Below, one piece after another: positions 49,667 to 64,000 of a DNA stretch of 64,000 nt (positions are counted from its first letter, which is position 1; each line of letters opens with the position of its first letter). Made by a program: the position numbers and the translations under genes. This DNA is from an uncultured Candidatus Bathyarchaeia archaeon (lineage in GTDB: Archaea > Thermoproteota > Bathyarchaeia > Bathyarchaeales > Bathyarchaeaceae): positions 27,656 to 91,655 of the forward strand of contig CAYNQS010000006.1 in assembly GCA_964399485.1 (NCBI GenBank). Direction: 5' to 3'. A model generated the notes under the pieces. That model saw nothing but the letters and a program-made list of their open reading frames with translations, was not told the DNA's origin and made no database searches.

Positions 49667-49735
49667 TGGGAATCCAACATCCTAAATTTTTAGGAACAAT
49701 AGAATATAAAACTTGTTAGAATTAGATGATTCTTT

Positions 49736-50742: not shown

Positions 50743-51021
50743 TCAAACTTCTGCAGATTTTAGCAATTTTTTCGATAACCCAAGCTCTTTAAATGTTTTG
50801 GTGGTCAATTGTCTAATTCTCTTTTTTAAAGCTTCATTCTCAGGATGAGGATAATATTCTACCTTCTCATTATCTATTAAAATTGCAACTGCAGTAGATT
50901 CACAGTTTCTACACATCCAAAAGCTGGTTCTGTAAGTAATCTCAGAAACCCATTCCATCATTTTGCCACAGTTTTTACATTTCAATAATCTCAGTACCTT
51001 CTCTAATTCTCTATAATCCAT
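50743..51021 (-). CDS. Small Zn-ribbon protein
   Basis: 92 aa. CKNCG...CRNCES Cys pairs. Confidence 0.45.
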   Translation of the reverse strand: MDYRELEKVLRLLKCKNCGKMMEWVSEITYRTSFWMCRNCESTAVAILIDNEKVEYYPHPENEALKKRIRQLTTKTFKELGLSKKLLKSAEV

Positions 51022-51096
51022 TTTCTTTGCCTCACTATGCGCGCACGCAACTATCCATATTTGGTCTTTTCTTAATAATGTTTTATAACGGTTATC

Positions 51097-51121
51097 TTCG
51101 TCGTCGTTCGTCGTCGTTTCG
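51097..51121. repeat. Short tandem repeat (TTCGTCGTCGT x2)
   Basis: TTCGTCGTCGTTCGTCGTCGTTTCG, 9 nt to the left of PAL copy 5. Confidence 0.6.
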
Positions 51122-51127
51122 TTTTTT

Positions 51128-51156
51128 CGTGGGGTTAAATTTTAACCTCAAGCCAA
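51128..51156. repeat. PAL element copy 5
   Basis: CGTGGGGTTAAATTTTAACCTCAAGCCAA, between the start of 50743-51021 (-) and the stop of 51243-51539 (-). Confidence 0.85.
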
Positions 51157-51242
51157 TTTTTTCATTTGAAGGTAGTGTAGGACCTGTGTTCGGGGCATAA
51201 ATACGAAATATAATGGATTGTTAAGACTCTTCAAAAAGTATC

Positions 51243-51539
51243 CTAGGTAGTTTCTAGGGCAGAAAATCCGGTAAGCAGAATTTTGTTTGAGCAATTGTTG
51301 CATCGAATCAATAGACTCTCTAATATATTGTTTCTGACTTTTGGCTCTAAAATAGAGTAAACATCTTCTGTTTCATCGTTAGGCGAAATCTTTGCCCCAC
51401 AGCAAGGACATAAAAAATCACCCTTCCCTTCTAGATCTATTAAACTAATTTTATGCACCAATACCTGCTTCACTTTTCGATCCCCTAGATATGCACCGCT
51501 AATGCCTTCGATAATTAACAAAAAAAGGTTTTTTGTCAA
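51243..51539 (-). CDS. Small Zn-ribbon protein
   Basis: 98 aa. CPCCG...CNNCS Cys pairs. Confidence 0.45.
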   Translation of the reverse strand: MTKNLFLLIIEGISGAYLGDRKVKQVLVHKISLIDLEGKGDFLCPCCGAKISPNDETEDVYSILEPKVRNNILESLLIRCNNCSNKILLTGFSALETT

Positions 51540-51561
51540 GAAAGTTTGACCAAAACTATCG

Positions 51562-51593
51562 TTTGGCTAGTCAAGAAAAATTGACTAAGCAAA
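51562..51593. promoter_or_regulatory. Imperfect inverted repeat (candidate operator) upstream of the 98-aa Zn-ribbon gene
   Basis: TTTGGCTAGTCAA-gaaaaa-TTGACTAAGCAAA (11 of 13 positions complementary), 23-54 nt upstream of the start at 51539. Confidence 0.3.
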
Positions 51594-51755
51594 ATAACAT
51601 TAACAAAATCGAATTTTGGTTAGTTAAATAATTATTTAGCTTTCTTACTGTGGGGGAAAGAAGGGCAGTTTCCTTGTCTTCTGCTCTAGGTTTATTACTT
51701 GCTGGACAAACATAAACTGTTATTTACTTGCTAGGTCAGTATGAAATGAGGGAGT

Positions 51756-52352
51756 TTGGTGAGCAAGGTTATTGTTCCTCCTACATCGGTTGTCCACAAA
51801 ACGGCGGTCATCGGAGAGGGAACACGCGTCTGGAACTTTGTACACGTTAGAGAAAACGCTGAAATAGGCAAGCAATGTGTCCTCGCCGACTACGTTTATG
51901 TGGGCAAAGGAGCAAAAATCGGAAACAACGTAAAGCTTGAGAACCGAGCAACAGTCTATCAGGGAGTAACAATCCAAGACAAAGTTTTTGTTGGTCCTCA
52001 CGTCACCTTCACAAACGACCCTTATCCAAGAAGCTTCAGCACAGACTGGAAAATCCTGCAGACACTCGTGAAAGATGGAGTCTCAATCGGCGCTGGAACA
52101 GTAATACGTTGCGGCGTCACCATAGGAGAATACGCTTTGATAGGCGCAGGCAGCGTAGTAACAGAGGACATACCGCCCCACGCTTTAGCTTACGGAAACC
52201 CAGCTAGAATCAGAGGATTCGTTTGCAGATGCAGCAGAAAACTTGAGACCGAAGAAAAAAGGGAAACCTGCGTTCTGATGAAGTGCCAGTTCTGTAACAA
52301 AGAATACAAGATAGCAGCGGAAGATTATGCCAGACAAAAAAAGGGGGAGTGA
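51756..52352 (+). CDS. Left-handed beta-helix (hexapeptide) sugar N-acetyltransferase, WbpD/WlbB-like, with C-terminal Cys motif
   Basis: 198 aa. Repeated hexapeptide pattern (IGEGTRVWNFVHV, IGKQCVLADYVYV, IGNNVKLENRATV). C-terminal CRCS...CQFC. Confidence 0.8.
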   Translation: MVSKVIVPPTSVVHKTAVIGEGTRVWNFVHVRENAEIGKQCVLADYVYVGKGAKIGNNVKLENRATVYQGVTIQDKVFVGPHVTFTNDPYPRSFSTDWKILQTLVKDGVSIGAGTVIRCGVTIGEYALIGAGSVVTEDIPPHALAYGNPARIRGFVCRCSRKLETEEKRETCVLMKCQFCNKEYKIAAEDYARQKKGE

Positions 52353-53463
52353 AAGACTGCTGAACCGGAAGATTCCGATTGCAAAACCGAACTTTGGAAA
52401 AGAAGAAGAAACTGCAGTGAAGGAGGTTCTGGAATCAGGTATCCTAGCCTCAGGACCGCGAACAAAACAGTTTGAAAAAGAGTTTGCGGAATACATCGGA
52501 GTAAAACACGCTGTTGCCGTGGCTAACGGAACCATAGCCTTAGATGTGGCGCTCAAGTCTCTTAAGTTAGGTCCCGGCGACGAGGTGATAACCTCAGCCT
52601 TTTCTTTCATATCCTCCGGCAACTGCATACTGTTTCAGAACGCAAAGCCTGTCTTCGCCGACATAGACCCCAGAACCTTCAACCTTGACCCCGCAGATGC
52701 TGCCGAGAAGATAACAGCAAAAACCAAGGCAGTAATTCCCATTCACATGTTCGGTCAACCTGCTAACATGGATGCCCTCAAGGAAATCACCGAAGACAAA
52801 GAAATCGCTTTGGTGGAGGATGCTGCCCAAGCCCACGGAACCGAATACAAGGGACAGAAAGCTGGAAGCATAGGAGAAATGGGTTGCTTCAGTTTCTACG
52901 CCACAAAGAACATGACAGCGGGCGAGGGAGGAATGATCACCACGAGCGACGCGGAACTGGCGAGGAAGGCTCGATTACTCATAAATCATGGGCAAAGCCA
53001 GAAGTATCACCATGACACCTTAGGCTACAACTACCGCATAACCGAATTATGCGCTGCCATCGGATCAGTCCAACTCAAGAAACTTGACAAATACAACACT
53101 AAAAGAAGAGAGAACGCGAAGCTTTTGACGCAGGGAATCCGCAAGTTCACGGGTTTAACTGTGCCCTACATAGATAAGGATGTGAAACCTGTCTTCCACC
53201 AGTATGTGGTAAGAGTGGAAGAGAACTACTCCAGAGACAGGGACGAGCTTGCCGATTCTCTAACTGAGAAGGGTGTCGGAGTTGCTGTTCACTACCCCAT
53301 CCCCATTTATAGGCAGCCGCTCTATCTGAAGTTAGGATACAAAGGGACAAAGTGCTCCAATACTGAGGAAGCCTGCAGACGGGTCTTAAGTCTGCCTGTT
53401 CACCCTCTAGTTGACAAAGGAGACATTGAATACATCTTGGCTGTTCTGGAAGAAATTTCTTAG
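52327..53463 (+). CDS. DegT/DnrJ/EryC1/StrS-family PLP-dependent sugar aminotransferase
   Basis: 378 aa. FSFYATKNMTAGEGGMITT (PLP-Lys region) and GDEVITSAFSF. Overlaps the acetyltransferase by 26 nt. Confidence 0.9.
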   Translation: MPDKKRGSERLLNRKIPIAKPNFGKEEETAVKEVLESGILASGPRTKQFEKEFAEYIGVKHAVAVANGTIALDVALKSLKLGPGDEVITSAFSFISSGNCILFQNAKPVFADIDPRTFNLDPADAAEKITAKTKAVIPIHMFGQPANMDALKEITEDKEIALVEDAAQAHGTEYKGQKAGSIGEMGCFSFYATKNMTAGEGGMITTSDAELARKARLLINHGQSQKYHHDTLGYNYRITELCAAIGSVQLKKLDKYNTKRRENAKLLTQGIRKFTGLTVPYIDKDVKPVFHQYVVRVEENYSRDRDELADSLTEKGVGVAVHYPIPIYRQPLYLKLGYKGTKCSNTEEACRRVLSLPVHPLVDKGDIEYILAVLEEIS

Positions 53464-53668
53464 CGACTTCAAATCTTAAAAGCTGCGCACATTTCACCGA
53501 GCAATGCGCTTGAGTAATTGTTGATCTTCTGTGAAAACTGACACTTACTGAAAACTACACGCAAATTGCATCCTTCAAGTCGCTGCTTGAAATGGTGTCT
53601 GTCTCTAAACGTTTGGTAGTAGATGCTATGTTCTATTCGTTGCTCATGTCACTATATCAGACGTCAGT

Positions 53669-54391
53669 TTAGGTCCCAACTCGATTAACGGTTTCGCTTA
53701 ACCATCCCGCCAGAAACTCCACATTGGTTCTGGTCAGATATGTTAGTGTGGTTAAACTTGTGTTAGTTAATGCAGCGTAAGGAATGAAAAGTATCTTAGA
53801 GATAAATCTTCTGAGAATCTGGTACAGGGAATAGTGACCGTAACGATTGTAAGACATTCCTAATTGGAAATGGTTTATTGGGGTACCCAAATGGACTGTT
53901 CCAATGCTGGGTATAATTTTCCAAACGTAACCAGAATCTTCAACATGCTTTTTGAGCAAGTGGTCTTCACCGAAAAAAAGTGGTGGAGGATTATGGTTTA
54001 TCAGCAGTTGTCGTTTAATCAGAACATTGTTGATGAATGGGTTCGTGTCAACTTTGTGGAGTCCAACCAAGGTTTTAACAGCCTTCTCATAAGCTGCTAT
54101 GTGCCTGTTATTTTGGACAGCTACTGTAGCTATTGCCCCAACATTAGGTTCAATATGAGAAAGGACCGTAGGTAACCAATCTTTGGGAATAGAGACATCA
54201 TCGTCAAACATTGCAACATATTCTGTAGATGCCTTCAAGCCTCCATCGACTCTAGCCTTTGAAAGAGGTTTACTATCGATTAGGAAGACTTGACCTATAT
54301 TCTCTTGAGCCTTTATTGACTCGATCAGTTTAGGTGAAACTGTTTTAGGGTCAAGAGTTAGGACAATAGCATCAACCTTCATCTTATTCAC
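53669..54391 (-). CDS. GT2-like glycosyltransferase
   Basis: 240 aa. VDAIVLTLD N-terminus and YVAMFDDDV (DxD) motif. Confidence 0.55.
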   Translation of the reverse strand: MNKMKVDAIVLTLDPKTVSPKLIESIKAQENIGQVFLIDSKPLSKARVDGGLKASTEYVAMFDDDVSIPKDWLPTVLSHIEPNVGAIATVAVQNNRHIAAYEKAVKTLVGLHKVDTNPFINNVLIKRQLLINHNPPPLFFGEDHLLKKHVEDSGYVWKIIPSIGTVHLGTPINHFQLGMSYNRYGHYSLYQILRRFISKILFIPYAALTNTSLTTLTYLTRTNVEFLAGWLSETVNRVGT

Positions 54392-54862
54392 CTTAATGTT
54401 GTTTCATGGCGATGTAATGTTTTTCTTCCACTTTACCTGTTTCTGGCATTCTGCATATGTTTCTACTACACTAGTAAATTTATCTCCAAGTATAATATTG
54501 CTCCGCTTGGTAGGGAAAAGTATGCCACAACAAAACAGTCTAAAGATTCGCTTCGTTTTCCAGCCGCAGAATTATCTTAAGGAGTCGTTCGTTAGCGACA
54601 GGTTTCACTCTTTTTGTTTTGCATAGATCACCCGTCTCCCAAAGTCTGGAACTTCAGAAGTTAAGCCTCTCTGTTACACGAGGTTCAATCTTCAAGAATT
54701 TACATGATTTTCCTATATTAACGATGCTTTTGACAAATAAATCTGAACAAAAAACAATGTAAAATCATATTTAATCCTTGACAAATGCATAATAAATGGC
54801 TAAAAAGTTGAAAGAAAAACAATTAATAGTCTGAGTGTGTTTATAAGCAGGTTGACCTAACA

Positions 54863-55663
54863 ATGAAAAAACTGATATTGGGTCTAGATGGAATGGATTT
54901 TGATATTGCTCTAGATCTAAATCTAACGAACATTCTTCAGATTCAGTTCGGAAGAATTGAAGTTCCTATAAATGAGGTGTTGGGGCAACCTACTTCTCCA
55001 GAAGTGTGGGCTTCTTTTCTTTGTGGAGAACATGTAAAAAAGATGTTCAAGGGTAGAAAGAGAGAGCGGTTGATGAAGTATCTCGTAAAATTGAAAAGAA
55101 TGTTTCCATTCATATCTATGGGGATTGGCAGAAAAATCTGCGGTCAAATAGTTAGTTTTCCAACATTGGATAGGAAAACTTGGGTAGATCTTCCAAATGT
55201 GAAAGAATTCAATTCGCCGTATTACAGTTACACAAACGAGGTTTTTGAATACACCCAGCAGTTTGGCAAAGACAAAGACTTGGACGCGTATAAAAAGAAT
55301 ATTTTAGACCTTTATGAAAGGGATTCTAAAAGAATTATTTCAGAAGTGAATTTGGAAGTGACGCATCCAAGCTGCGACATTCTCTTCTGTTATCTTCATT
55401 TTCCTGACATGTTCAATCATCTCTGGTTCCAAGAGGTGGATGCGCTCTATTCACATTACCGAAAAATGGATGCTTTCGTTAAAGGAATTCTGGATTCGGT
55501 GGGCGATACACACGTGATAATCGTATCGGATCACGGTTTCGATATGTCAAAAGGAGATCACAGCGATTTTGGCTTCATAAGCAGTAACAAGTTCATGAAT
55601 TTTCCAAAAGATATTATGGGCTTAGGTAAGTTGATGTATGAATATGCGGATGTCAACAAATGA
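54863..55663 (+). CDS. Alkaline-phosphatase-superfamily (type I phosphodiesterase/nucleotide pyrophosphatase-like) protein
   Basis: 266 aa. LILGLDGMDFD N-terminus and IIVSDHGFDMSKGDH metal-site-like motif. Confidence 0.5.
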   Translation: MKKLILGLDGMDFDIALDLNLTNILQIQFGRIEVPINEVLGQPTSPEVWASFLCGEHVKKMFKGRKRERLMKYLVKLKRMFPFISMGIGRKICGQIVSFPTLDRKTWVDLPNVKEFNSPYYSYTNEVFEYTQQFGKDKDLDAYKKNILDLYERDSKRIISEVNLEVTHPSCDILFCYLHFPDMFNHLWFQEVDALYSHYRKMDAFVKGILDSVGDTHVIIVSDHGFDMSKGDHSDFGFISSNKFMNFPKDIMGLGKLMYEYADVNK

Positions 55664-56460
55664 ATACTGAAGAATTGGTTTCGAAATCGGTTTACATGCT
55701 GCGAGAAGCAAAAGCGCACTTCAAAAATCCAGTGCTGCTTTGGTCAACGGGGAAGGATTCTACTTTATCTCTAAGTTTGTGTAGGGAAGCATTTGATGGA
55801 AAGGTCCCGTTCCCAGTTCTGTACATCGACACTGGGTTGCAATTTGAGCAAATGTATAACTTCAGAGACAAGATCGCGAAGGATTGGAATCTGGACCTAA
55901 TAGTAGAAAAAAGTGACAAGGCAGGAAAAATTAGTCCCTCGCAAGAAACTCCTAATCAAGTATGTTGTCAAACTTTGAAAACAGATACTGTGAGAGATAC
56001 TATTGAACAGCATGGGTTCGATGCGATGATTATATCAATCTGTAGGGATAAACAGCCAATTGGAAATACAGAAAGAATTTGGAAGCAAAAAAAGAAAACG
56101 GGTACACCATCTGAGAGCCTTCAGGTTGATCCTGTATTTAATCTTCAGACAGATTTTGGTGCCGATTCTAGTTGCACACGTATCAATCCGATTCTGCATT
56201 GGGATGAAATCGCCATTTGGGAGTATACCCAAAAAATGGAGATACCTGTCAACCCGATATATTTTGCCAAAGACGGAGTCAGATATCGATCTCTTGGCTG
56301 TCACCCTTGCACTAACCCTATCGAATCTTCTGCAAAGAACATCGCCGAGATTATTGAAGAACTAAAGGTCGCTAAAGGTCCAGAAAAGTCTGGAAAATCA
56401 CAGGAAGCTAAAGACAAAGAAGAAATTATGAAGAAGCTCAAGGCTATGGGGTATATGTGA
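55660..56460 (+). CDS. cysD: Sulfate adenylyltransferase subunit 2-like (CysD / PAPS-reductase fold)
   Basis: 266 aa. NPVLLWSTGKDSTLSL PP-loop, VPFPVLYIDTG, RYRSLGCHPCT, C-terminal ...KLKAMGYM. 4-nt overlap with the upstream gene. Confidence 0.7.
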   Translation: MNTEELVSKSVYMLREAKAHFKNPVLLWSTGKDSTLSLSLCREAFDGKVPFPVLYIDTGLQFEQMYNFRDKIAKDWNLDLIVEKSDKAGKISPSQETPNQVCCQTLKTDTVRDTIEQHGFDAMIISICRDKQPIGNTERIWKQKKKTGTPSESLQVDPVFNLQTDFGADSSCTRINPILHWDEIAIWEYTQKMEIPVNPIYFAKDGVRYRSLGCHPCTNPIESSAKNIAEIIEELKVAKGPEKSGKSQEAKDKEEIMKKLKAMGYM

Positions 56461-56757
56461 TTTGATTCATTTCTTGTCTCATAATTGTAAGCTTGGTTTG
56501 TGGAGCAATAGCCAAATCACTGGGCATAAGATATGGTGTATTTAGCACAAGCATATTGCTTTCGTTTGGGTTTGCTCTAGCCATTTTAAGTGCAAGTATT
56601 CATGTTGCTGAAGTTTTGTGGATATCATAAGTGGGGTTAGTCATTGGAAATTCGAAGATATAGACAAAGGTATGATTTTGATGAAATCACAAAGGAAAGA
56701 AAAACTTCGAAATAAAAGATTGCAAGAGAATCCAGAAAAACATGAGCAACGGAAGAG

Positions 56758-56988
56758 TTATTTGTTCTCCTCATTTTCCAGTTGCCGAAGTCTCTTGAGG
56801 AACCTGTTCGTGGGAGGATCAAGTTTTACTTTCTGTCTTGTTTCATCCAGTTCGATGAAGTTATAGCTTGCCAGAAATTTTGTGACATTCTCAACATTGA
56901 TGCTGTCTAGTTGAGCTTCCTTTTCTATATCCTTTAGATGATGCCATTTTCCGTTCTCCAGTAACCGCAGAATAGTCTCAGCAGGCAC
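56758..56988 (-). CDS. Small winged-helix-like protein (paralog of 14251-14487)
   Basis: 76 aa. ILRLLENGKWHHLKDIEKEA aligns with ILWFLKDGKWHELEEITEKL of the 78-aa ORF at 14251-14487. Confidence 0.5.
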   Translation of the reverse strand: MPAETILRLLENGKWHHLKDIEKEAQLDSINVENVTKFLASYNFIELDETRQKVKLDPPTNRFLKRLRQLENEENK

Positions 56989-57118
56989 TATGAATCCTCC
57001 TTCAGTTTCATCAGTTAGGTATGAAGCGCTTAAATGGCTTCTGAAGTTATTTTCCAGAAAAAAACTCTAGAAAATTGAATCTCAACTATCACAATCGAGA
57101 GAAAACTGTTATTGGCAT

Positions 57119-57137
57119 GGTTTGGGGTTGAATACTA
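57119..57137. repeat. PAL element, degenerate copy (left arm only)
   Basis: GGTTTGGGGTTGAATAC. The first 11 nt are identical to the left arm of the consensus. Overlaps the stop of the 57135-57356 ORF. Confidence 0.5.
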
Positions 57138-57356
57138 GGTCTGGTTTTCTGTTTTCTCGTGGTCTGCGTAGTAGCTGAGTCCCGCCGTTACTCCGGTGGA
57201 TACCGCGAACCACAGAATCATGGCTGTAACGTTTCCCTGAGTGACGATGTATGATAGGGCAATGGAGGCGCCGTGGACAACCGCGAGAATGGCAGAGAGT
57301 TTTGGTTTAAATTCTAATCCCATGACATCACTTCCAGTCACGGTTTGTTTTCCCAC
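57135..57356 (-). CDS. Small two-TM membrane protein (holin-like topology)
   Basis: 73 aa with two hydrophobic helices. Start overlaps the 3' end of the portal-like gene by 19 nt. Confidence 0.4.
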   Translation of the reverse strand: MGKQTVTGSDVMGLEFKPKLSAILAVVHGASIALSYIVTQGNVTAMILWFAVSTGVTAGLSYYADHEKTENQT

Positions 57357-58540
57357 AACTCGAAACCGGCTTTCATCAGGTTTTTCCGCACCTCTTCCGG
57401 TCTCACATATGGGGTTTCGGATGTGGCGCTTATCTCGGCTAGTCTGATTAGGTCTTCTAGTTTGACTTCAGGTTTTTCTGTGCCCCAGTTTAGTCTGCAG
57501 TTTGCCTTCGCTGGGTTGAGGCTTGCCTGCCGTATTAGGGGATTGAAGATTTCTCGTTCGCAGGTTCTTTTTATGAATCGTTGTAGTGCCATTACTTTTC
57601 TTTCCGCGATTTCCAGGGCTGCTCTGGCTGATGCTTCTGTGAAGCCTGGGGTGGTGAACAGTTTTGGCAGTGGGGTTTGTCCGCCCAGGTAGACTTGGTT
57701 GAGGATGTGGTCGATGTAGGCTTCGTAGCGGGCTTTGGGGTCTACGGTGACGGTTTTGATGTCTGCTTCTGGTTTGTTATACACGAATCTTGCGCCTGCT
57801 TTGGGTTTGCTTTTTATGAGTTTCTGGTATTCGGCGAGTTTTTCGTCGCTGGCGCCTGCGAAAATCCACAGTTCGTCTGGTCCAGCGTATTTTTCGAAGA
57901 TTTCGGGCATGATTTTTTCTATGCGGGCTTTCATTTCGAGAAAGCTGATTCTTGTTTCTCCGTTGAAGCTGAGTTCGGTGAGTAGTACTTGAAGGACTCC
58001 TGTTCCGTATGCTGAAAAGTTAACTGGGTTCCAGCGGAAGTGGACGATTTTTTCGGGTTTGAAGGCTGTTTTCGCGTCTCCGTAGCTGTAGTTGTAGCCT
58101 GTGACCTGACCGTACTGGTTTCGTTTTATTGCTGTTGGGTTGTCGAAGCCTGTGAGGGGCAGTATCTTCAGGTTCTGCAGGTGTTCAGGTTCTGTTTTCA
58201 GCCAGAAGCTGTTGCCTGATGCCACGATTTCTCTGGCTGCGATCTGCAGTAGCTCGTCTAGGTTGACTGTTTCGTTGAAGCTGTCTATGATCTGTTTTGC
58301 TTCTTCGGCGCGTGCGTATTCTTCGTTGATTGTGGTGTAGAATCCAGCGCCTACGGCTTGGTCTGCTAGAAAGTCGACGAAGGCTTTGCAGCTGGGGTCT
58401 CTGGTGTAGGCGGTTATTATGTCGTTGAAGGTGACTGTTCGGGTTTCTCCGTAGATTTGTCTCCATGCGGGCAGCAGGACGCCGTTGGTTTGTTGGAGTT
58501 TTCCGTAGAATTCTTTGAGTTTGTTTACGACTACGCTCAA
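57338..58540 (-). CDS. Head-tailed-virus portal-like protein (HK97/Phage_portal-like)
   Basis: 400 aa. IAAREIVASGNSFWL, EKIVHFRWNP..SAYGTGVL and LNQVYLGGQTPLPKLF resemble conserved portal blocks. Judged from recalled motifs only. Confidence 0.5.
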   Translation of the reverse strand: MSVVVNKLKEFYGKLQQTNGVLLPAWRQIYGETRTVTFNDIITAYTRDPSCKAFVDFLADQAVGAGFYTTINEEYARAEEAKQIIDSFNETVNLDELLQIAAREIVASGNSFWLKTEPEHLQNLKILPLTGFDNPTAIKRNQYGQVTGYNYSYGDAKTAFKPEKIVHFRWNPVNFSAYGTGVLQVLLTELSFNGETRISFLEMKARIEKIMPEIFEKYAGPDELWIFAGASDEKLAEYQKLIKSKPKAGARFVYNKPEADIKTVTVDPKARYEAYIDHILNQVYLGGQTPLPKLFTTPGFTEASARAALEIAERKVMALQRFIKRTCEREIFNPLIRQASLNPAKANCRLNWGTEKPEVKLEDLIRLAEISATSETPYVRPEEVRKNLMKAGFELWENKP

Positions 58541-58596
58541 GGTTGTTACGTCCAGCAGTTTTTTGGTGATTTTTGGTCTTAAGTTGGAATGAGCTT

Positions 58597-58962
58597 CTAT
58601 GCTGAGTGCTGTTTAGGTGCCAAATTTTTCTTAGATGGATCGTTGAAGAGGGCTATGATGGCTTGTCCCCTGTCTGTGAGTTTGTAGTATTTTGCGGGGA
58701 GGAACTTGTCTTCTTCGATGTGGTCGACTTCTAGGAGATTTGCTTTGAGGCAGTATCTGAGGTAGCGGTAGATTTTTTTGCTGTCGAAGTGGAGGCTGCT
58801 GTGATAAAGCTGATACACGTTGTTGGCGTTCTTTCTGAACATGTTGAGAAACTTCAGGGTCTCCAGCAAATCGCAGAATTTGGAGCCTTTTTTGGGTCCA
58901 CGCTGCAACAACAGCACCAACCAAAAAGAGGGTGGGTAGAAGGGTATCAGATTTTTTGACAT
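58597..58962 (-). CDS. Winged-helix (PadR/MarR-like) DNA-binding protein
   Basis: 121 aa. KIYRYLRYCLKANLLEVDHIEEDKFLPAKYYKLTDRGQ has a recognition-helix-plus-wing pattern. An alternative overlapping frame (58631-58975) was judged less protein-like. Confidence 0.45.
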   Translation of the reverse strand: MSKNLIPFYPPSFWLVLLLQRGPKKGSKFCDLLETLKFLNMFRKNANNVYQLYHSSLHFDSKKIYRYLRYCLKANLLEVDHIEEDKFLPAKYYKLTDRGQAIIALFNDPSKKNLAPKQHSA

Positions 58963-59156
58963 TTTCGGTCTTCACGAGGCTGCGGCAAAACGGTTATTCT
59001 GCAAGAAACGCCCTATAGGGAAACTGCTTCTTCGGGCAGATATATGACGTGGGCAGGCATGTTTATGTCAAATTTGCTGTTGGATTTGGCTTTTTGGTGT
59101 TGTTTTATTGGGGCTGAAACCGCGTTTTTCTTGGGGAAGAACTGTTTCCATGGGGG

Positions 59157-60038
59157 TTATGGGCGCTTTTTGTGCCAATCTTCGCATACTGTGCCTGAGC
59201 AGTAATCTTTGCGTTCCAGCTCGATTGTTGAGTGTTCGATGTGATGTTTCAGGAGTTTTTCTTTGATTGTCTGTTTTGTTGGTTCAGGACTTTTGAGTGT
59301 CTCATCATCCAGCACCACATGTGCCGTGAATATGTCGGTTTCTCCCTCCAGTGACCAGATGTGTATGTCGTGGACGTCAATTACCCCCTTGATTGAGGTC
59401 AGATCTTTTTTGACGGCTTCGAGGTTGATGTGCTCTGGGACGCCTTGGAGGAGGATGTTGATTGCTTCTCTGAGGTTTTTGGTTACATTGTAGAGGATGA
59501 ACGCTGTTAAACCGATGGTCATCAGTGGGTCGAGGAGATAAACTTTCCAGAAGTAGATGATTACGCCTCCAACCAGAATGCCCCCCCAGCCCAGCACGTC
59601 CTCTAGGAGGTGCCATGAGAGCACTTTCTCGTTTAGGCTCTCACCTTTTTTCAGCAGAAAGAAGCCCAAGCCGTTGAATAGGATGCCGATGACGGCTATG
59701 CCCACCATTCCAAACGCATTTACAGTTTCTGGATTGAAGAGTCTGGGTATGGCTTGGAAGATGATTACGATTGAGCCTCCGATTAGGATAGAGGCTGAGA
59801 AGAGTGCAGAAAAGAGGGAAAGCCTCTGGTAACCGAATGTTCGGCTGGTGTCTGGAGATTTGCGTGCTCCCCGTTCGAAGAGCCATGAGACCAGTAAGGC
59901 GACGCTGTCGCCGAAATCATGCAATGCATCAGAGAGGATTGCTAAACTGTTGGTCCAGAAGCCGCCGACAAGCTCTATGACTGTGAAGGCGACATTCAAG
60001 AACGCGGCGAAACGCACCCTTTTTTCTCGCTCTGGCAT
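59157..60038 (-). CDS. Cation diffusion facilitator (CzcD/ZitB-type) metal efflux transporter
   Basis: 293 aa. Six TM helices, SDALHDFGD (TM2 HD/DD site), HLLEDVLGW (TM5) and a C-terminal cytoplasmic domain. Confidence 0.9.
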   Translation of the reverse strand: MPEREKRVRFAAFLNVAFTVIELVGGFWTNSLAILSDALHDFGDSVALLVSWLFERGARKSPDTSRTFGYQRLSLFSALFSASILIGGSIVIIFQAIPRLFNPETVNAFGMVGIAVIGILFNGLGFFLLKKGESLNEKVLSWHLLEDVLGWGGILVGGVIIYFWKVYLLDPLMTIGLTAFILYNVTKNLREAINILLQGVPEHINLEAVKKDLTSIKGVIDVHDIHIWSLEGETDIFTAHVVLDDETLKSPEPTKQTIKEKLLKHHIEHSTIELERKDYCSGTVCEDWHKKRP

Positions 60039-60114
60039 GGTTTAAGGTAAGTTCTCGACTTGATAAAAACCTATCCAAAAACAGAGAAATGGGGAAATAC
60101 GTTTAGAACTAAAT

Positions 60115-60138
60115 GGGTTTGGGGCTAAATTTTGATTC
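60115..60138. repeat. PAL element copy 6 (right arm degenerate)
   Basis: GGGTTTGGGGCTAAATTTTGATTC. Overlaps the last codons and stop of the MFS gene. Lies 77 nt upstream of the CDF start. Confidence 0.8.
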
Positions 60139-61324
60139 TGTTTCTCAGGAAGAGTATAAGGGATGAGAAGAACAGTGCTGATAGTAACGGCAGTGTTTGC
60201 GACGGTAAGTATTGGATTATGAATCCTCCTGCGATTGGTGTGATGATTTGAGCTATGCTCTGCAGTGAGTTGTTGACGCCCAGTACGGTTGCGGTTTCCT
60301 TTTGTGTGACGCTGTTTGTCAGTTTGCTGGTTAAAATGGGTCTGCTGACTCCTGTGCCGTAGGCGAGGAAGATTAGGGGGATGAAAACGAACATGTAATC
60401 TGTGGAAAGTGCAAGAGTCACCATTGAAATTACCATGGCTACTATCCCCGTTCTCAGCATGCTGCCTTCACCCAAGGCTCGGAGGATGCGGGCAATCAAG
60501 AATGTTTGAATAGTGACTCGCAGTATGCCGATCCATGCCATGTAGAAGCCGACTTGGTCAGCGCCAACGTGGAATTGTGCTTCTGCCAGTAAACTGAAGT
60601 TGGAAATGAACAGGAAGAATCCGGCGTTGAAGATGAAGAACATGATTAAGCTGTTTCTGACGTTGTGGGTTTTCACGAAGCGTTTAGCGTCGTTGACGGG
60701 GATTACTTCGTTGAAGCGAAGAGATAGTTTTTCGGGTTTTTCTGTGATGGTTTCGGGGAGGAAGAGAAGAACTAGGACGATTGAGACTAGGGTTACGGCT
60801 GCGGCGAAGAACATCGGAACTGAGTAGTCGATTCTGGAGAGCACTCCGCCGATGAAGGGACCGAATATCATTCCGGCGCCGAATACGCCGCTGGAGTAGC
60901 CGTAGACTCTGGTTCGGTGGCGGGGTTCGGTGATGTCGCTGATGTATGCTTGGCTGACGGTCATGTTGCTTCCCAGCAATCCGTCGATTAACCGTGCCAC
61001 AACTAACAGGATTGGGGTGGTGGCGAAGCCGAGGAGCAGAAAGCCTGCGAATGTGCTGAGCTGGCTTAGGATGAGGAGGGGTTTTCTTCCGAAGCGGTCG
61101 CTCAGTTTGCCTGTTATTGGGCTGGCGAATAGTTGGCAGAAGCTGAACACGCTGACGATGAGGCCTATTTGTATGGGGGCTAATCCAAGCGATAAGCCTA
61201 GAAACGGTATTAGCGGCATTACCATAATGAAGCCCAGCACTTCCGTGAAGATTATCAGAAATATCACGTAGAGGCGCTTGTCAAATTTGAAGTCGTCTGC
61301 TTCGTGTGCTTCGTTGGTTTTCAA
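60125..61324 (-). CDS. MFS transporter (drug/H+ antiporter, TetA-like 12-TM)
   Basis: 399 aa. GKLSDRFGRKPLL (MFS motif A) and 12 hydrophobic segments. Confidence 0.9.
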   Translation of the reverse strand: MKTNEAHEADDFKFDKRLYVIFLIIFTEVLGFIMVMPLIPFLGLSLGLAPIQIGLIVSVFSFCQLFASPITGKLSDRFGRKPLLILSQLSTFAGFLLLGFATTPILLVVARLIDGLLGSNMTVSQAYISDITEPRHRTRVYGYSSGVFGAGMIFGPFIGGVLSRIDYSVPMFFAAAVTLVSIVLVLLFLPETITEKPEKLSLRFNEVIPVNDAKRFVKTHNVRNSLIMFFIFNAGFFLFISNFSLLAEAQFHVGADQVGFYMAWIGILRVTIQTFLIARILRALGEGSMLRTGIVAMVISMVTLALSTDYMFVFIPLIFLAYGTGVSRPILTSKLTNSVTQKETATVLGVNNSLQSIAQIITPIAGGFIIQYLPSQTLPLLSALFFSSLILFLRNRIKI

Positions 61325-61405
61325 AAAGTTCGACCTCTACATCTATTAGGTGGTTAACTCGTCAAGATTCTGTTCCACTCTCTAAGAGGCGTAAAAACGT
61401 TTCTA

Positions 61406-61419
61406 TTAACTAGTTAACC
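61406..61419. promoter_or_regulatory. Perfect palindrome TTAACTAGTTAA(CC) upstream of the MFS gene (candidate operator)
   Basis: TTAACTAGTTAACC at 61406-61419 and GGTTAAC at 61352-61358. Both share the GGTTAA/TTAACC half-site with the PAL core. Confidence 0.3.
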
Positions 61420-61598
61420 AACAAACTGGAGAATCAATGAAGAATCTCTTTTGTTGGCTAAATTTCTGAGAAATGAACGTAAAGAGTGGATTCCTCGCAT
61501 CGTAATTAAAGAATAAAAGTCATAAGTCATCATTCTCCCATGACCAGATGTTTTATAACCAATTAGTTTTAAGATGTTTTTGAGGTGAGTAAAGGCAA

Positions 61599-61760
61599 AT
61601 GCCCATGCTTTATCTTAAATGCAAAACTTGTGGAATAAAATTCGCATCAGGAATTTCAGTAGATAGAACTAGCTTCAAAACGCTAAGCTTGATTAATAAT
61701 TCGCATACCTGCCCAAAAGGACATACACACGCTTATAACAAGCAAGATTATTCCTTTTAA
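61599..61760 (+). CDS. Small Zn-ribbon protein (53 aa, below the ORF-track cutoff)
   Basis: Manual translation: MPMLYLKCKTCGIKFASGISVDRTSFKTLSLINNSHTCPKGHTHAYNKQDYSF. Preceded by SD-like GAGGTGA (61582-61588). Confidence 0.45.
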   Translation: MPMLYLKCKTCGIKFASGISVDRTSFKTLSLINNSHTCPKGHTHAYNKQDYSF

Positions 61761-61796
61761 TATCGCGACTACTCAGTATTAAAGAGGTGAAGATTT

Positions 61797-62579
61797 ATTC
61801 CTGAGCCTTCTCTAAAAACTCGGAAAGTAGTTTATGAAAGATGGAGAGGTAAATGCGCTTTCTGTGGTATTGACCTACCCTTCGAACAACACCATATTAT
61901 CGCCAAAAATGACTCCCCAGAGTTGATTGATGACCCTGATAATTTGATTTTGTTATGTGCAAATCATCATGGTTTGACACTTAAGAAAAAACCAGATGAA
62001 CGCCCAGCAATTGCAATTGAAGATATTGACGACCTGCAAAAATCTGGTTTTGCCAAAGCAGAAAAAAGAGGTTTTTATTTTTCCATTCCTCAAAATTTTT
62101 CGCTTTCTTTAGGTAGTAATCTTTGCATAGGATGTCCCTATATTCTTATTGTTAATGATAAACCGTTGATTGAGATGTGGCCTCAGAGGACTGCCTTTTA
62201 TGTTGAAGAACCCAAGGTTTACCTTTACATGCGATTCTTTGATGACGAGAATAATTTTATAGGAGGAATGTTTGCGAATCATTGGGCTTCCGTTGTTAAT
62301 GAGGAATGGAAGTTGGATATTCTGGAAAATGAAATCATTGCTAGACACGTAAAGAGACCGATTTTCGTCAAATTTGAGCGCGATAAAAACTTGGTTCGAA
62401 TAACAGGACGGTTCTATTTTGATGGAATAGAAATAACTGCCAAATATGATAGCCTTCTACTAATGACAAATGTGTTCTCAGGAAATATGGCAAGAAATTG
62501 CGAAGTAGCTTTTATTGTGAAAGGAAATCGTGAATCAGCCTCATTAGGATTCTGTGGTCGATTATCTACGAAATTTTAA
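61797..62579 (+). CDS. HNH endonuclease-domain protein with ~200-aa uncharacterised C-terminal domain
   Basis: The frame is open from 61791. Upstream of the ORF-track start it encodes ...WRGKCAFCGIDLPFEQHHIIAKNDSPELIDDPDNLILLCANHHG (C-x2-C...HH...N...H HNH motif). The only plausible initiator behind SD-like GAGGTGA (61784-61790) is an in-frame ATT at 61797. The start is uncertain. Confidence 0.6.
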   Translation: MPEPSLKTRKVVYERWRGKCAFCGIDLPFEQHHIIAKNDSPELIDDPDNLILLCANHHGLTLKKKPDERPAIAIEDIDDLQKSGFAKAEKRGFYFSIPQNFSLSLGSNLCIGCPYILIVNDKPLIEMWPQRTAFYVEEPKVYLYMRFFDDENNFIGGMFANHWASVVNEEWKLDILENEIIARHVKRPIFVKFERDKNLVRITGRFYFDGIEITAKYDSLLLMTNVFSGNMARNCEVAFIVKGNRESASLGFCGRLSTKF

Positions 62580-62626
62580 TGCTCTAATTTTGAACTATGT
62601 GTTTTCTATAATTTGTGTTTTTTCTA

Positions 62627-62716
62627 CATGTGTATTGGGGAGAGAGCAGGTGGGAGCGCGGTGTAAACGCACGGGCACACATACGTACGTGTACGGGCGT
62701 ATGGACACGAGTACGT
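62627..62716 (+). repeat. PAL-associated upstream module (copy 2) with alternating purine-pyrimidine tract
   Basis: Homologous to 49761-49861 (blocks GAGAGAGC, GGTGTAAACGCAC, CACACATACGTACGTGTACGG, ACG..GGGTTTGGG). Perfect R/Y alternation at 62675-62695 (21 nt). Confidence 0.7.
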
Positions 62717-62738
62717 GGGTTTGGGTTTAATTTTAATC
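62717..62738. repeat. PAL element copy 7 (degenerate right arm)
   Basis: GGGTTTGGGTTTAATTTTAATC, between the convergent 3' ends of the HNH gene and the Shedu-like gene. Confidence 0.75.
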
Positions 62739-62788
62739 TCTCTGGCATCGCTCAATACTAAGAATTAAAGCCGTAAATCTCAAGCAAC

Positions 62789-63892
62789 TTATTTTTGCTT
62801 TGAAATAGCATCCAAATATTCTTGATACCGTGATTTGCATTGATTTACTACAGAAAAATAAGACTTGAATTCAATTGAGGGAATCAAGTTGATTGCCTTC
62901 TTTAGATGGGGAGTAATGTTCTTTGCTATTAGGAATCCCTGTTTTTCATCATATTCCGCAAATTCATCAACAAGAACCAAGTAATCCATTAGTTGAGTTA
63001 TGTGTTCCTGTTTAACTTGCATTGAAGGCCTTTTAATCTCAACTACGACCAGTCTTTTTTCGAAATCAGCACAAATAAAGTCAGGACGTCTTTTCCTATA
63101 TTTTTTCCTGTATTCTTTTCCAAGAAAATTTGAAAGTGTTTTGTTAGAACGGAGAAGCCAATACTTATCGTCAAGAATCCAAAGCGCACCTGCAAGTTGG
63201 TTATGTACAGAGTTTTTCCCTTTAATCTCATAGGCATTTTCATTTTGAATGGATGCATCAAAAATTGTTAACTTCCGTAATCTACTGCCAATAATGCTTG
63301 CAACAGAAGTAATTTCCGGCAGAGTGTATTGCTGCATTAGTTGGTGTAGTTTTTTCATTCCTTCAGGCGATTTTTCTTTTCCTAGCTCATTAATCAGTTC
63401 TTTCAAAGTGTTAGCCATTATGTCTTGTTTACCCAATAGAGACCTAAAAGCTGTCTCTACAAAATCGCTAAGAACATCAAAATCTTCAATTTCGACTTCG
63501 CCACGATAAACTTGGTCAAAAGCTTTCAAAATGCTGATTGCCGCTTTAGGGTATTGTTCAACAATCTTCTTTACTTGTGGGTCAATTGCTTCTTCTTTTC
63601 TCAATTGTTTTTCTAAAGCTTTTAGAAGAGGTGGTAATTTTTCCCATTTCAGTTTATTTGCTAAGTAATCTAACACTGGTTTGACTTTTGCTAGTTCCTC
63701 AGGGGTTTTTATTCTAACGGATTGATAATAAAATGGGCTTTGACGGGGTCCAGTAGGGCCTCTAGTCAACCTGTATAATTGTAAAGCTCCTCTGGGATTA
63801 AAAATATCCTTATAAGCTCTCATGTAAAATTTCTGTTTGATGATTGTTTGTCTATCGATTATAGTTTTTTGAGTTGCACCTTGATTTGACAT
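62789..63892 (-). CDS. Shedu-like protein: variable N-terminal region plus C-terminal PD-(D/E)xK nuclease (DUF4263-type)
   Basis: 367 aa. C-terminal ...HNQLAGALWILDDKYWLL...RRPDFICADFEKRLVVVEIKRPSMQV...QLMDY fits the D...(E/V)xK restriction-endonuclease-fold core and the DUF4263 pattern as I recall it. AT-rich. Confidence 0.5.
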   Translation of the reverse strand: MSNQGATQKTIIDRQTIIKQKFYMRAYKDIFNPRGALQLYRLTRGPTGPRQSPFYYQSVRIKTPEELAKVKPVLDYLANKLKWEKLPPLLKALEKQLRKEEAIDPQVKKIVEQYPKAAISILKAFDQVYRGEVEIEDFDVLSDFVETAFRSLLGKQDIMANTLKELINELGKEKSPEGMKKLHQLMQQYTLPEITSVASIIGSRLRKLTIFDASIQNENAYEIKGKNSVHNQLAGALWILDDKYWLLRSNKTLSNFLGKEYRKKYRKRRPDFICADFEKRLVVVEIKRPSMQVKQEHITQLMDYLVLVDEFAEYDEKQGFLIAKNITPHLKKAINLIPSIEFKSYFSVVNQCKSRYQEYLDAISKQK

Positions 63893-63944
63893 AAATAATA
63901 GAATTGTCCGATATACTATATTTGATTTCGTATGAAATTAATTT

Positions 63945-63968
63945 GGGTTTGGGGTTAAAATTTGACCC
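63945..63968. repeat. PAL element copy 8
   Basis: GGGTTTGGGGTTAAAATTTGACCC, 53 nt upstream of the Shedu-like gene start. Confidence 0.85.
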
Positions 63969-64000
63969 TTTCCGTCACTGAACAAATTTTCATTCTTATT

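What the first reader, a model, noticed from the sequence alone, without database searches (positions are those of the whole stretch)
62789..63892. Shedu-like (DUF4263-type PD-(D/E)xK) nuclease as a stand-alone unit flanked by directly oriented PAL copies 7 and 8
The C-terminal RPDFICADFEKRLVVVEIKRP core matches the restriction-endonuclease-fold D...ExK signature and the context I recall for DUF4263, the Shedu anti-phage nuclease domain. The ~250-aa N-terminal part is helical and unassigned (Shedu N-termini are known to be variable sensors). The gene is AT-rich and convergent with the HNH gene. It is bounded by two PAL copies in the same orientation (GGGTTTGGG on the left in both), the geometry that would allow excision by site-specific recombination.
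Basis: partly seen in the sequence, partly recalled or inferred. Interest (0 to 1): 0.6.

Follow-up and report, generated by a model that had tools for sequence, protein, structure and literature searches.

The report
Solitary restriction-like nuclease in variable slot
An AT-rich, horizontally acquired gene in a Bathyarchaeia chromosome encodes a stand-alone DNA-cutting enzyme that is built like the Shedu anti-virus nuclease but belongs to a different, unnamed family, and it sits in a genome slot that holds different genes in each related genome.

Summary
A 367-aa ORF lies at 62789-63892 (-). It is AT-rich, convergent with an HNH gene, carries RPDF...VVEIKRP, and is flanked by two same-orientation PAL copies.

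- **Nuclease:** It is a PD-(D/E)xK enzyme. E222, D271, K287 and Q300 are invariant and E285 nearly so in 77 homologues. The layout is Shedu-like: small beta-rich N-domain, helical linker, C-terminal nuclease.
- **Not Shedu:** The protein has no PF14082 hit and relatives score only below threshold. The strongest sequence relatives are the C-terminal module of 590-670-aa proteins, read as BbrUII/HgiDII-type restriction enzymes, and phrog_6203. NucS/EndoMS is the best structural match.
- **Family:** It is an unnamed family of mostly 370-420 aa, spread across bacteria and archaea. In about a quarter of 47 loci it lies near Type I, Type IIG or m5C restriction-modification genes.
- **Unit:** Related Bathyarchaeia genomes show the variable unit is a 2.45-kb AT-rich block (61495-63941) that also holds the HNH gene. 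One breakpoint is the outer edge of PAL8, the other abuts a degenerate PAL half-site, and PAL7 is internal.
- **PAL:** It is an intergenic dyad element found in more than 120 metagenome contigs.

Most likely this is accessory cargo encoding a regulated defence nuclease. Excision at PAL sites is not shown.

The parts
62789..63892 (-). Gene for a 367-aa solitary PD-(D/E)xK endonuclease (includes stop codon)
   Evidence: ORF list. 54 homologues at E down to 1e-138. 1734 cluster representatives at E<=1e-3 in the exhaustive search.
63638..63892 (-). N-terminal domain, residues 1-85: four beta strands followed by a helix (b-b-b-b-a)
   Evidence: AF2 model m2a4a48ea5fb5, pLDDT 74-88 over residues 11-80. 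The sPC4/Whirly-like topology is inferred from the order of elements only. The sole fold hit is weak (PURA, E 1.5).
63248..63637 (-). Helical linker region, residues 86-215. Its last ~50 residues are conserved together with the nuclease domain.
   Evidence: AF2 models. phrog_6203 and NF050001 matches start at about residue 162-166.
62789..63247 (-). PD-(D/E)xK nuclease core, residues 216-367, with motif I E222, motif II D271, motif III E285/K287 and motif IV Q300xxxY304
   Evidence: Invariant columns. Domain model pLDDT 86. Best Foldseek matches are NucS/EndoMS with prob 1.0.
63032..63082 (-). Codons for D271 through K287 (the PD...ExK catalytic signature)
   Evidence: Translation and conservation.
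63911..63924 (-). TATA-like box AAATATAGTATATC, centred about 26 nt upstream of the ATG. Candidate promoter for a leaderless mRNA.
   Evidence: Read directly from the sequence. Inference only.
63944..63969 (+). PAL8: GGGTTTGGGGTTAAAATTTGACCCTT. It is conserved in related genome L190, and its outer edge is the left breakpoint of the variable block.
62640..62740 (+). PAL7 module: GAGAGAGC / purine-pyrimidine tract followed by a degenerate palindrome (core 62716-62740). It lies inside the variable block, between the convergent genes.
   Evidence: Its resemblance to the PAL3 module is shown.
61495..63941 (.). AT-rich variable block of 2.45 kb: 53-aa Zn-ribbon ORF, HNH gene, PAL7 and the nuclease gene
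   Evidence: blastn breakpoints against L190 and L192. GC profile. L190, L189 and L192 carry other cargo at the same slot.
61454..61471 (+). Degenerate PAL half-site TTGGCTAAATTTCTGAGA, in the same orientation as PAL6-8, 6-23 nt from the right breakpoint. Conserved in L190 and L192.
61791..62579 (+). HNH nuclease ORF, convergent neighbour in the same AT-rich block. Not a conserved partner of the family.

Best explanation
The gene encodes a stand-alone, metal-dependent PD-(D/E)xK DNA endonuclease from an uncharacterised family of mostly 370-420-aa proteins. Its linker-plus-nuclease module is homologous to the C-terminal module of 590-670-aa proteins, read here as BbrUII/HgiDII-type restriction enzymes. 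In those long proteins the module follows a GHKL-type ATPase; here it follows a small beta-rich N-terminal domain and a long helical linker. This is the layout of type I Shedu. No methyltransferase accompanies the gene, so I infer that the N-terminal part restrains or targets the nuclease, making it a single-gene innate-immunity nuclease that acts on foreign DNA. It is accessory cargo. It lies with an unrelated HNH nuclease gene in a 2.45-kb AT-rich block that fills a hypervariable slot next to a conserved MFS transporter gene in a Bathyarchaeia chromosome. Shown: the fold, the motifs, the homologies, the foreign composition and the variable slot with its breakpoints. Inferred: the DNA substrate, the regulation by the N-domain, the defence role and the means of insertion.
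For: Catalysis: E222, D271, K287, Q300 and Y304 are invariant and E285 nearly invariant over 77 sequences.

Fold: the domain model has pLDDT 86. NucS/EndoMS are the top matches (prob 1.0, E 1.5e-3). The B. cereus Shedu nuclease 8ti9_A gives the most complete overlay in the list (TM 0.47/0.49 over 220 columns). Viral-library hits are Mrr-type or other restriction endonucleases.

Homology:
- NF050001 BbrUII/HgiDII matches 58 of 77 members through profile positions ~423-649 of 659 (best E 3.5e-15).
- phrog_6203 matches the window protein at 4.5e-20.
- The exhaustive search finds 590-670-aa proteins matching through their C-terminal part at E down to 1e-42.
- Two such long proteins have GHKL-like N-termini.
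- The two long-form GTDB loci checked sit next to m5C methyltransferases.

Context of the short forms: Type I R subunits in 5-6 loci, S subunits in 3, and Type IIG-like proteins in 3 of 47 loci.

Context of close homologues: next to IS240 transposases, or between a Rep gene and an integrase.

Solitary gene: no NPPY or PCQ+ENV motifs and no RM homologues among window ORFs.

Foreign DNA: GC3 is 28% against 57-61% in core genes.

Variable slot: the same flanks, at 82-90% identity, hold an ABC transporter (L190), a 171-aa ORF (L192) or MarR plus unknown ORFs (L189).
Against: - No family model reaches its curated cutoff. The window protein itself does not hit NF050001 at E<=1, and all Foldseek E-values exceed 1e-3.
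- The defence role rests on context in distant bacterial relatives. Only about a quarter of those loci have RM neighbours.
- Around the window gene the only other candidate defence gene is the HNH gene.
- The N-domain fold assignment has no significant structural match.
- There is no experimental evidence for any member of the family.
Confidence: 0.55

Rival explanations
1. It is a genuine but highly divergent Shedu (SduA) protein: a homotetrameric, autoinhibited nuclease whose N-terminal domains sense DNA ends or single-stranded nucleic acid.
For: - Same order of parts and same size as type I Shedu, whose mean is 386 aa (10.1101/2023.08.10.552762). The b-b-b-b-a N-domain resembles the sPC4/Whirly N-domain of type 1A Shedu (10.1101/2023.08.10.552793).
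- Motifs I-IV are present.
- 34 of 48 relatives give sub-threshold PF14082 hits, best 8.6e-5.
- 8ti9_A overlays at TM 0.47-0.49.
Against: - The query has no PF14082 hit at E<=10, and the three relatives' scores that were shown are 14.5-16 bits against a cutoff of 27.
- PADLOC SduA models hit only 5 of 77 members, best 8e-4.
- HSDR_N, NucS and BbrUII models score better.
- The profile search of PDB sequences finds NucS but no Shedu chain at E<=10.
- The K-to-Q spacing is 13 residues, as in NucS (11), against 29 in B. cereus Shedu.
Confidence: 0.15
2. It is an orphan restriction endonuclease. Either it is a modification-dependent (Type IV-like) enzyme that needs no methyltransferase, or it is a Type II-like enzyme whose methyltransferase lies elsewhere or has been lost.
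For: - The catalytic module is shared with BbrUII/HgiDII-type restriction enzymes.
- The two long forms checked are paired with m5C methyltransferases.
- Fold hits include MspJI, AspBHI and Mrr-like enzymes.
- The short forms often sit inside RM operons.
Against: - No modified-base reader domain (SRA, YTH, EVE) was detected.
- Most of the 47 short-form loci have no methyltransferase among the neighbours that were screened.
- The N-domain is small and varies between clades: a Zn ribbon in bacteria, a beta domain here.
Confidence: 0.2
3. It is a selfish or element-maintenance nuclease belonging to the mobile block (homing- or addiction-type), and it promotes the spread or retention of the block rather than host defence.
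For: - It travels in AT-rich foreign DNA beside an HNH nuclease.
- Close homologues lie next to IS240 transposases and integrase/Rep genes.
- Serine recombinases are neighbours in 4 loci.
Against: - No conserved partner gene or target-site signature was found.
- The contexts are heterogeneous.
- The family is embedded in Type I RM operons in several bacteria, which fits defence better.
Confidence: 0.07
4. It is a housekeeping DNA-repair nuclease of the NucS/EndoMS type.
For: NucS is the best structural match and the best PDB-sequence match. NCBIfam NucS gives 7.4e-6.
Against: - The score is 25 bits against a cutoff of 216, and only the nuclease core matches. No NucS N-domain was detected.
- The composition is foreign, the position is variable, and the taxonomic distribution is patchy.
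Confidence: 0.03

Closest known systems
BbrUII/HgiDII family restriction enzymes (NCBIfam NF050001) and phage family phrog_6203
   Same: The roughly 200-aa helical-linker-plus-PD-(D/E)xK module is homologous. E reaches 3.5e-15 per member, 4.5e-20 to the PHROG profile, and 1e-42 in the profile search.
   Different: Those proteins are 590-670 aa. In two long forms examined, a GHKL/HATPase_c_3-like ATPase fills the N-terminal ~400 residues, and the two GTDB long-form loci are paired with m5C methyltransferases. The window protein has a ~85-aa beta domain instead, has no methyltransferase, and scores 30-40 bits against a cutoff of 550.
Shedu / SduA (PF14082, DUF4263)
   Same: Single gene, about 370-400 aa, with a variable N-domain, a helical linker and a C-terminal PD-(D/E)xK domain carrying motifs E, D, ExK and Q. 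The nuclease is of the NucS-like subtype. The global overlay on 8ti9_A has TM about 0.48 (papers 10.1101/2023.08.10.552793 and 10.1101/2023.08.10.552762).
   Different: It fails the PF14082 and PADLOC SduA models. Motif IV lies 13 rather than 29 residues after the lysine. Oligomeric state and sensing are unknown.
NucS/EndoMS C-terminal domain
   Same: Best structural and PDB-sequence match for the catalytic core. It shares the D..ExK..QxxxY spacing.
   Different: There is no NucS N-terminal domain. The gene is not a core gene: it is AT-rich and variably placed.
Integron gene cassettes (attC/IntI), including those reported in Archaea (recalled, not checked here)
   Same: Short palindromic sites stand between single genes. 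One breakpoint of the variable block falls exactly at a site. The slot holds different cargo in different genomes.
   Different: PAL is a 17-19-bp perfect dyad with G-tract flanks, not a 60-120-bp attC. Site orientation is mixed elsewhere in the window. No integrase was seen. A neighbouring PAL-rich block is bounded by a 12-bp direct repeat instead.

Membership tests
Shedu / SduA (PF14082) | Significant match to the DUF4263/SduA_C profile | tested here: not met
   No hit for the window protein at E<=10. 34 of 48 relatives hit only below threshold (best 8.6e-5; the three scores shown are 14.5-16 bits against a cutoff of 27). PADLOC SduA models hit 5 of 77, best 8e-4.
Shedu / SduA (PF14082) | PD-(D/E)xK motifs I-IV (E, D, ExK, Q) | tested here: met
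   E222, D271, E285/K287 and Q300 are invariant or nearly so. Compare E204, D249, E264/K266 and Q295 in B. cereus Shedu.
Shedu / SduA (PF14082) | Type I layout: N-terminal regulatory domain, helical linker, C-terminal nuclease, about 386 aa | tested here: met
   AF2 model: strands 10-58 and helix 64-80, helices to residue 215, nuclease 216-367. Family lengths are mostly 370-420 aa.
Shedu / SduA (PF14082) | Structural similarity of the nuclease domain to solved SduA | tested here: inconclusive
Shedu / SduA (PF14082) | Homotetramer through the nuclease domain; N-domain autoinhibition; anti-phage activity | not testable with these tools
   Needs multimer modelling and experiments.
BbrUII/HgiDII restriction enzymes (NF050001) | Full-length equivalog match (cutoff 550 bits) | tested here: not met
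   30-40 bits, C-terminal positions ~423-649 only. The window protein is not listed at E<=1.
BbrUII/HgiDII restriction enzymes (NF050001) | Homologous catalytic module | tested here: met
   58 of 77 members hit, best 3.5e-15. 590-670-aa proteins match at E down to 1e-42.
BbrUII/HgiDII restriction enzymes (NF050001) | Adjacent cognate m5C methyltransferase | tested here: not met
   No PCQ+ENV or xPPY motif in any window ORF of 120 aa or more (a crude motif test). The long forms L053 and L055 do have one.
NucS/EndoMS | Full-length match including the N-terminal domain; core-gene status | tested here: not met
   NF003270 gives 25 bits against a cutoff of 216, covering residues 271-344 only. The composition is foreign and the slot variable.
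Integron-like cassette | Recombination sites at both cassette boundaries | tested here: inconclusive
   The left breakpoint is at the edge of PAL8. The right breakpoint is 6-23 nt from a degenerate half-site. PAL7 is internal.
Integron-like cassette | Integrase next to the array | tested here: not met
   No integrase or recombinase hit among the ORFs of 46-64 kb that were scanned. Small ORFs were not all tested.
Integron-like cassette | Empty site or circular junction for this cassette | not testable with these tools
   The exact protein occurs on one other contig only. No read-level search was possible.

The most novel reading that the evidence does not exclude
PAL elements ((GGGTTT)n-GGGG-TTAAAWTTTAA-CC-(AACC)n dyads) are the crossover sites of an undescribed cassette-exchange system in Bathyarchaeia. 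The slot beside the MFS gene would then be an array in which single genes, here two nucleases, are swapped between genomes. The 367-aa protein would be the founding archaeal example of a new single-gene defence nuclease family with a Shedu-like build.
Probability: 0.15. Interest if true: 0.8.

Novelty: new variant of a known kind. Interest (0 to 1): 0.4.

Why it matters
The gene adds an unannotated, widely scattered family to the set of candidate single-gene immune nucleases. The exhaustive search found 1734 cluster representatives, 589 of them at E<=1e-10. The family also links these short nucleases to the catalytic module of GHKL-ATPase-containing restriction enzymes. That link suggests how one nuclease core is re-used under different regulators.

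For archaea, where few defence systems beyond CRISPR and restriction-modification have been tested, it gives a concrete candidate. It also gives a concrete hypervariable slot, with conserved flanks in several Bathyarchaeia genomes, in which gene turnover can be followed. The nuclease itself is not surprising. The PAL element at the breakpoints is the more unusual feature.

Tried and rejected
- **Family libraries:** Pfam, PADLOC, NCBIfam and PHROGs scans of the protein and of its whole family. No family passed its cutoff.
- **PDB by sequence:** single-sequence and profile searches found only NucS, weakly.
- **Phages and plasmids:** tblastn against both collections gave no match.
- **HNH as a partner gene:** rejected. 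No HNH homologue lies next to any family member.
- **PAL travelling with the gene:** rejected. No PAL occurs in any locus of close or distant homologues.
- **PAL as a bacterial terminator or sigma-70 promoter:** nothing above background was found, and the host is an archaeon.
- **Viral contigs:** scans for PAL and for MFS orthologues gave only scattered single hits or none.
- **Strain variants or an empty site:** exact-protein look-ups returned only one contig.
- **Exact direct repeats at the ends of the 2.45-kb block:** none of 8 nt or longer.
- **Homologues of the cargo genes in PAL-bearing metagenome contigs:** none.
- **SduA sequences for a profile-profile comparison:** the paper supplements were not held.
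Full report
**1. Observation**

The ORF 62789..63892 (minus strand, ATG start, 367 aa) is real. Residues 269-289 read RPDFICADFEKRLVVVEIKRP.

- The gene has 34.9% GC (GC3 28%). The first 46 kb of the window have 46.7%, and core genes have GC3 57-61%.
- It converges on an HNH ORF that ends at 62579.
- Two copies of the palindromic element called PAL flank it, at 62716-62740 and 63944-63969. Both have GGGTTTGGG on the low-coordinate side.
- The element is far above chance. GGGTTTGGG occurs 5 times against 0.56 expected. The 19-mer GGGGTTAAATTTTAACCCC with up to 3 mismatches occurs at 5 sites against 0.01 expected.
- With a looser threshold there are nine copies, all between 48.2 and 64 kb and none in the first 48 kb.
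- PAL7 is degenerate.

**2. Host and setting**

The first 46 kb carry housekeeping genes: CTP synthase, HisRS, CysRS, LeuA, aconitase-family protein, AdoHcy hydrolase, an archaeal/eukaryotic-type YGR210-like GTPase and DUF373. The neighbouring MFS transporter has orthologues at 78-92% identity, several of them named Candidatus Bathyarchaeum or Bathyarchaeota. The window is therefore part of a Bathyarchaeia chromosome.

**3. The protein**

*Family scans.* No curated family is reached.

| Library | Result for the window protein | Result across relatives |
|---|---|---|
| Pfam | Sub-threshold NucS_C (8.7e-4), HSDR_N, HSDR_N_2 and PDDEXK_3; no PF14082 even at E<=10 | Of 48: HSDR_N_2 in 46, HSDR_N in 43 (best 1.8e-8), NucS_C in 38 (9.3e-7), SduA_C in 34 (8.6e-5), all below the curated cutoffs |
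| PADLOC | Weak Cas4 and candidate-system hits only | SduA models hit 5 of 77 |
| NCBIfam | NucS NF003270 at 7.4e-6 | NF050001, BbrUII/HgiDII family restriction enzyme, matches 58 of 77 members (best 3.5e-15), always through profile positions ~423-649 of 659, at 30-40 bits against a cutoff of 550 |
| PHROGs | phrog_6203 (644-position profile, unknown function) matches residues 162-366 at 4.5e-20 | not scanned |

*Homologues.*
- A first search found 54 homologues. About 43 are at 45-62% identity and the rest at 24-37%.
- A scan of one genome per species found 55 loci at 35% identity or less. They come from Proteobacteria, Bacteroidota, Actinomycetota, Planctomycetota, CPR bacteria, Chloroflexota, Methanoperedens and DPANN archaea. 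The proteins are mostly 370-420 aa.
- In a 77-sequence alignment the invariant residues are R204, E222, S228, W238, P270, D271, K287, P289, Q300, Y304 and Y356. E285 is nearly invariant. This is the E...PD...ExK...QxxxY pattern of RecB/NucS-like PD-(D/E)xK nucleases.

*Exhaustive profile search*. It found 1734 cluster representatives at E<=1e-3, 589 at E<=1e-10 and 90 at E<=1e-30. Two architectures appear:
- 360-440-aa proteins like this one;
- 590-670-aa proteins that match through their C-terminal part, at E down to 1e-42.

Two of the long proteins, compared pairwise with two GTDB long forms (L053, L055), have N-termini with GHKL-ATPase motifs. A further relative carries PF13589. L053 and L055 each lie next to an m5C methyltransferase. 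I infer that these long proteins are the BbrUII/HgiDII family, from their length and from the matched region. No family search was left to confirm this.

*Structure.*
- The full-length AF2 model (pLDDT 72) has four strands (residues 10-58) and a helix (64-80). A less confident helical region runs to residue 215, followed by an alpha/beta domain.
- A model of residues 160-367 alone is confident (pLDDT 86, pTM 0.78).
- Foldseek against PDB puts NucS/EndoMS first (prob 1.0, E 1.5e-3, TM 0.40 over ~123 columns). Restriction enzymes follow: Nt.BspD6I, MspJI, Kpn2I and EcoO109I.
- The B. cereus Shedu nuclease domain 8ti9_A ranks 22 (E 0.094). It has the most complete overlay in the list, TM 0.47/0.49 over 220 columns.
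- No Foldseek E-value is below 1e-3.
- Profile searches of PDB sequences find only NucS (E 0.07-0.14) and no Shedu chain. 8TI9 is present in the structure copy searched by Foldseek.
- The viral structure library returns Mrr-like and other restriction endonucleases.

*Comparison with Shedu.* Gu et al. (10.1101/2023.08.10.552793) describe B. cereus Shedu as follows:
- an sPC4/Whirly b-b-b-b-a N-domain (residues 1-117), a helical linker (118-170) and the nuclease;
- motifs E204, D249, E264/K266 and Q295;
- EndoMS as the closest structure.

Loeff et al. (10.1101/2023.08.10.552762) give a mean length of 386 aa for type I SduA.

The window protein has the same order of parts, a similar size and the same NucS-like core. 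It fails the defining profile, and its motif IV lies 13 residues after the lysine (NucS 11, Shedu 29). It is therefore built like a Shedu protein but is not a member of PF14082 by the tests available.

**4. Context of the family**

Among 47 GTDB loci, the genes within two positions of the family gene include:
- Type I R subunits in 5-6 loci;
- specificity subunits in 3 loci;
- Type IIG/MmeI-like fusion proteins with N6-methyltransferase motifs in 3 loci, tightly coupled to the family gene;
- large serine recombinases in 4 loci.

In several loci the gene sits between hsdS and hsdR (L001, L003, L019).

Close archaeal homologues lie in varied contexts:
- next to an IS240 transposase in two different contexts;
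- between a Rep gene and an integrase;
- among metal-homeostasis genes.

The HNH neighbour is not conserved with the family. The window has no recognisable DNA methyltransferase (motif test only).

This patchy, mobile, RM-associated pattern fits an accessory defence gene, but the support is indirect.

**5. The PAL-bounded unit**

MFS orthologues at 85-90% identity gave five related loci. blastn gives these correspondences:
- window 64871-63942 matches L190 4677-5609 (88% identity);
- window 61494-60141 matches L190 7793-9184;
- homology with L192 resumes at window 61477.

The window-specific segment is therefore 61495-63941, or 2.45 kb. It holds a 53-aa Zn-ribbon ORF, the HNH gene, PAL7 and the nuclease gene. 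It coincides with the low-GC stretch at about 61.35-64.15 kb.

The same slot holds different cargo in each relative:

| Locus | Content of the slot |
|---|---|
| Window | 53-aa Zn-ribbon ORF, HNH gene, PAL7, nuclease gene |
| L190 | ABC transporter (2.2 kb) |
| L192 | one 171-aa ORF; the contig starts at a PAL |
| L189 | MarR plus unknown ORFs; no PAL |
| L193, L194 | the whole segment out to the OMP decarboxylase gene is absent |

The breakpoints relate to PAL as follows:
- The left breakpoint falls exactly at the outer (CCCAAA) edge of PAL8, and PAL8 is itself conserved in L190.
- The right breakpoint lies 6-23 nt from a degenerate half-PAL at 61454-61471. This half-site has the same orientation and is conserved in L190 and L192.
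- PAL7 is internal to the block, between the convergent genes.
- No exact direct repeat of 8 nt or longer bounds the block.

However, the unit that varies between genomes is larger than PAL7-PAL8. No empty site, circle or recombinase was found for it.

**6. What PAL is**

- The part of the element not fixed by the search pattern is conserved. The consensus is (GGGTTT)n GGGG(A)TTAAAWTTTAA(T)CC (AACC)n.
- Dyad symmetry is kept by paired changes. At position +/-6 there are 42 G-C and 24 A-T pairs, so 67 of 86 are complementary against 39.8 expected.
- 82 of 92 copies are intergenic. Gene ends can abut them, but gene starts are never closer than about 34 nt.
- Orientation relative to genes, and within arrays, is mixed.
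- Some contigs show copies about 1 kb apart with single genes between them, for example L105.
- PAL is absent from every locus of the nuclease's relatives. The gene therefore does not carry PAL with it.

A TATA-like box centred about 26 nt upstream of the ATG lies inside the cargo (63911-63924), so PAL8 is not needed as a promoter. This is an inference.

The neighbouring 3.5-kb PAL-rich block (48194-51726) is an insertion relative to L191. It is bounded by the only two copies of TAAATAACAGTT in the window. In that block the PAL copies are passengers, not boundaries. On the other hand, PAL6 sits exactly where the VIT1 gene of four related loci (L189-L192) is missing.

The evidence therefore leaves two readings open. 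PAL may be an intergenic regulatory or structural element of accessory DNA at which breakpoints happen to fall. Or PAL may itself be a recombination hotspot.

**7. Verdict**

The gene encodes a solitary PD-(D/E)xK endonuclease of an unnamed family. It is Shedu-like in build but is not a DUF4263 member. By sequence it is closest to the catalytic module of BbrUII/HgiDII-type restriction enzymes, and by fold to NucS.

It is horizontally acquired cargo in a hypervariable slot. A defence role with N-domain control is the most likely mechanism (0.55), but it is inferred. Excision at PAL sites is possible and unproven.

Noticed in passing
window 48182-51726: A 3.5-kb AT-rich block holds a KaiC-like ATPase gene (48503-49666), small Zn-finger ORFs and PAL copies 1-5. 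It is an insertion relative to related locus L191, where the two flanks are contiguous. It is bounded by the only two copies of the 12-mer TAAATAACAGTT in the window (48182-48193 and 51715-51726). No integrase lies inside it.
   Followed up: partly
window 60082-60140 (PAL6): Four related loci (L189-L192) have a VIT1/rubrerythrin-like gene between the MFS and cation-efflux genes. The window lacks it and has 59 bp containing PAL6 in its place.
   Followed up: partly
window 48233-63969; loci L069-L148: PAL belongs to a widespread intergenic element: (GGGTTT)n GGGG(A)TTAAAWTTTAA(T)CC (AACC)n. Its dyad is maintained by compensatory changes. It is often flanked by GA, GT/CA, ACG or purine-pyrimidine simple tracts, and it occurs in more than 120 sediment-type metagenome contigs. 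No paper in the library contains the sequence in this context.
   Followed up: partly
window 57338-58540 and beyond the window end (about 64305 onward, from L056); L190 2583-5171: Virus-like genes with host-like GC bracket the metal-transporter genes. On one side is a portal-like gene (phrog_2662, 2.5e-6). On the other is an ORF that looks by eye like an HK97-type prohead protease (no PHROG hit); its homologous region in L190 (398-aa gene) is followed by Phage_cement_2 and Phage_capsid_4 genes. Both sets are missing in L193 and L194.
   Followed up: partly
window 61791-62579: The HNH ORF has a complete HNH motif in frame, but it lies upstream of the first ATG/GTG/TTG (the TTG at 61923). The gene either uses an unusual start codon (an ATT follows a GGTGA) or has lost its start.
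   Followed up: no
proteins P0060, P0117, P0168; loci L053, L055: Long-form relatives of 600-690 aa combine a GHKL/HATPase_c_3-like ATPase with the same linker-nuclease module. L053 and L055 lie next to m5C methyltransferases.
   Followed up: partly
L105 10027-13792: A metagenome contig has four PAL copies about 0.9 kb apart, each interval holding one gene. Two of these genes show D...ExK-like motifs by eye.
   Followed up: no
window 49800-49860 and 62650-62716: Alternating purine-pyrimidine tracts (ACGTACGTGTAC...), preceded by GAGAGAGC, lie directly upstream of PAL3 and PAL7. The two modules align at about 70% over roughly 110 nt.
   Followed up: partly
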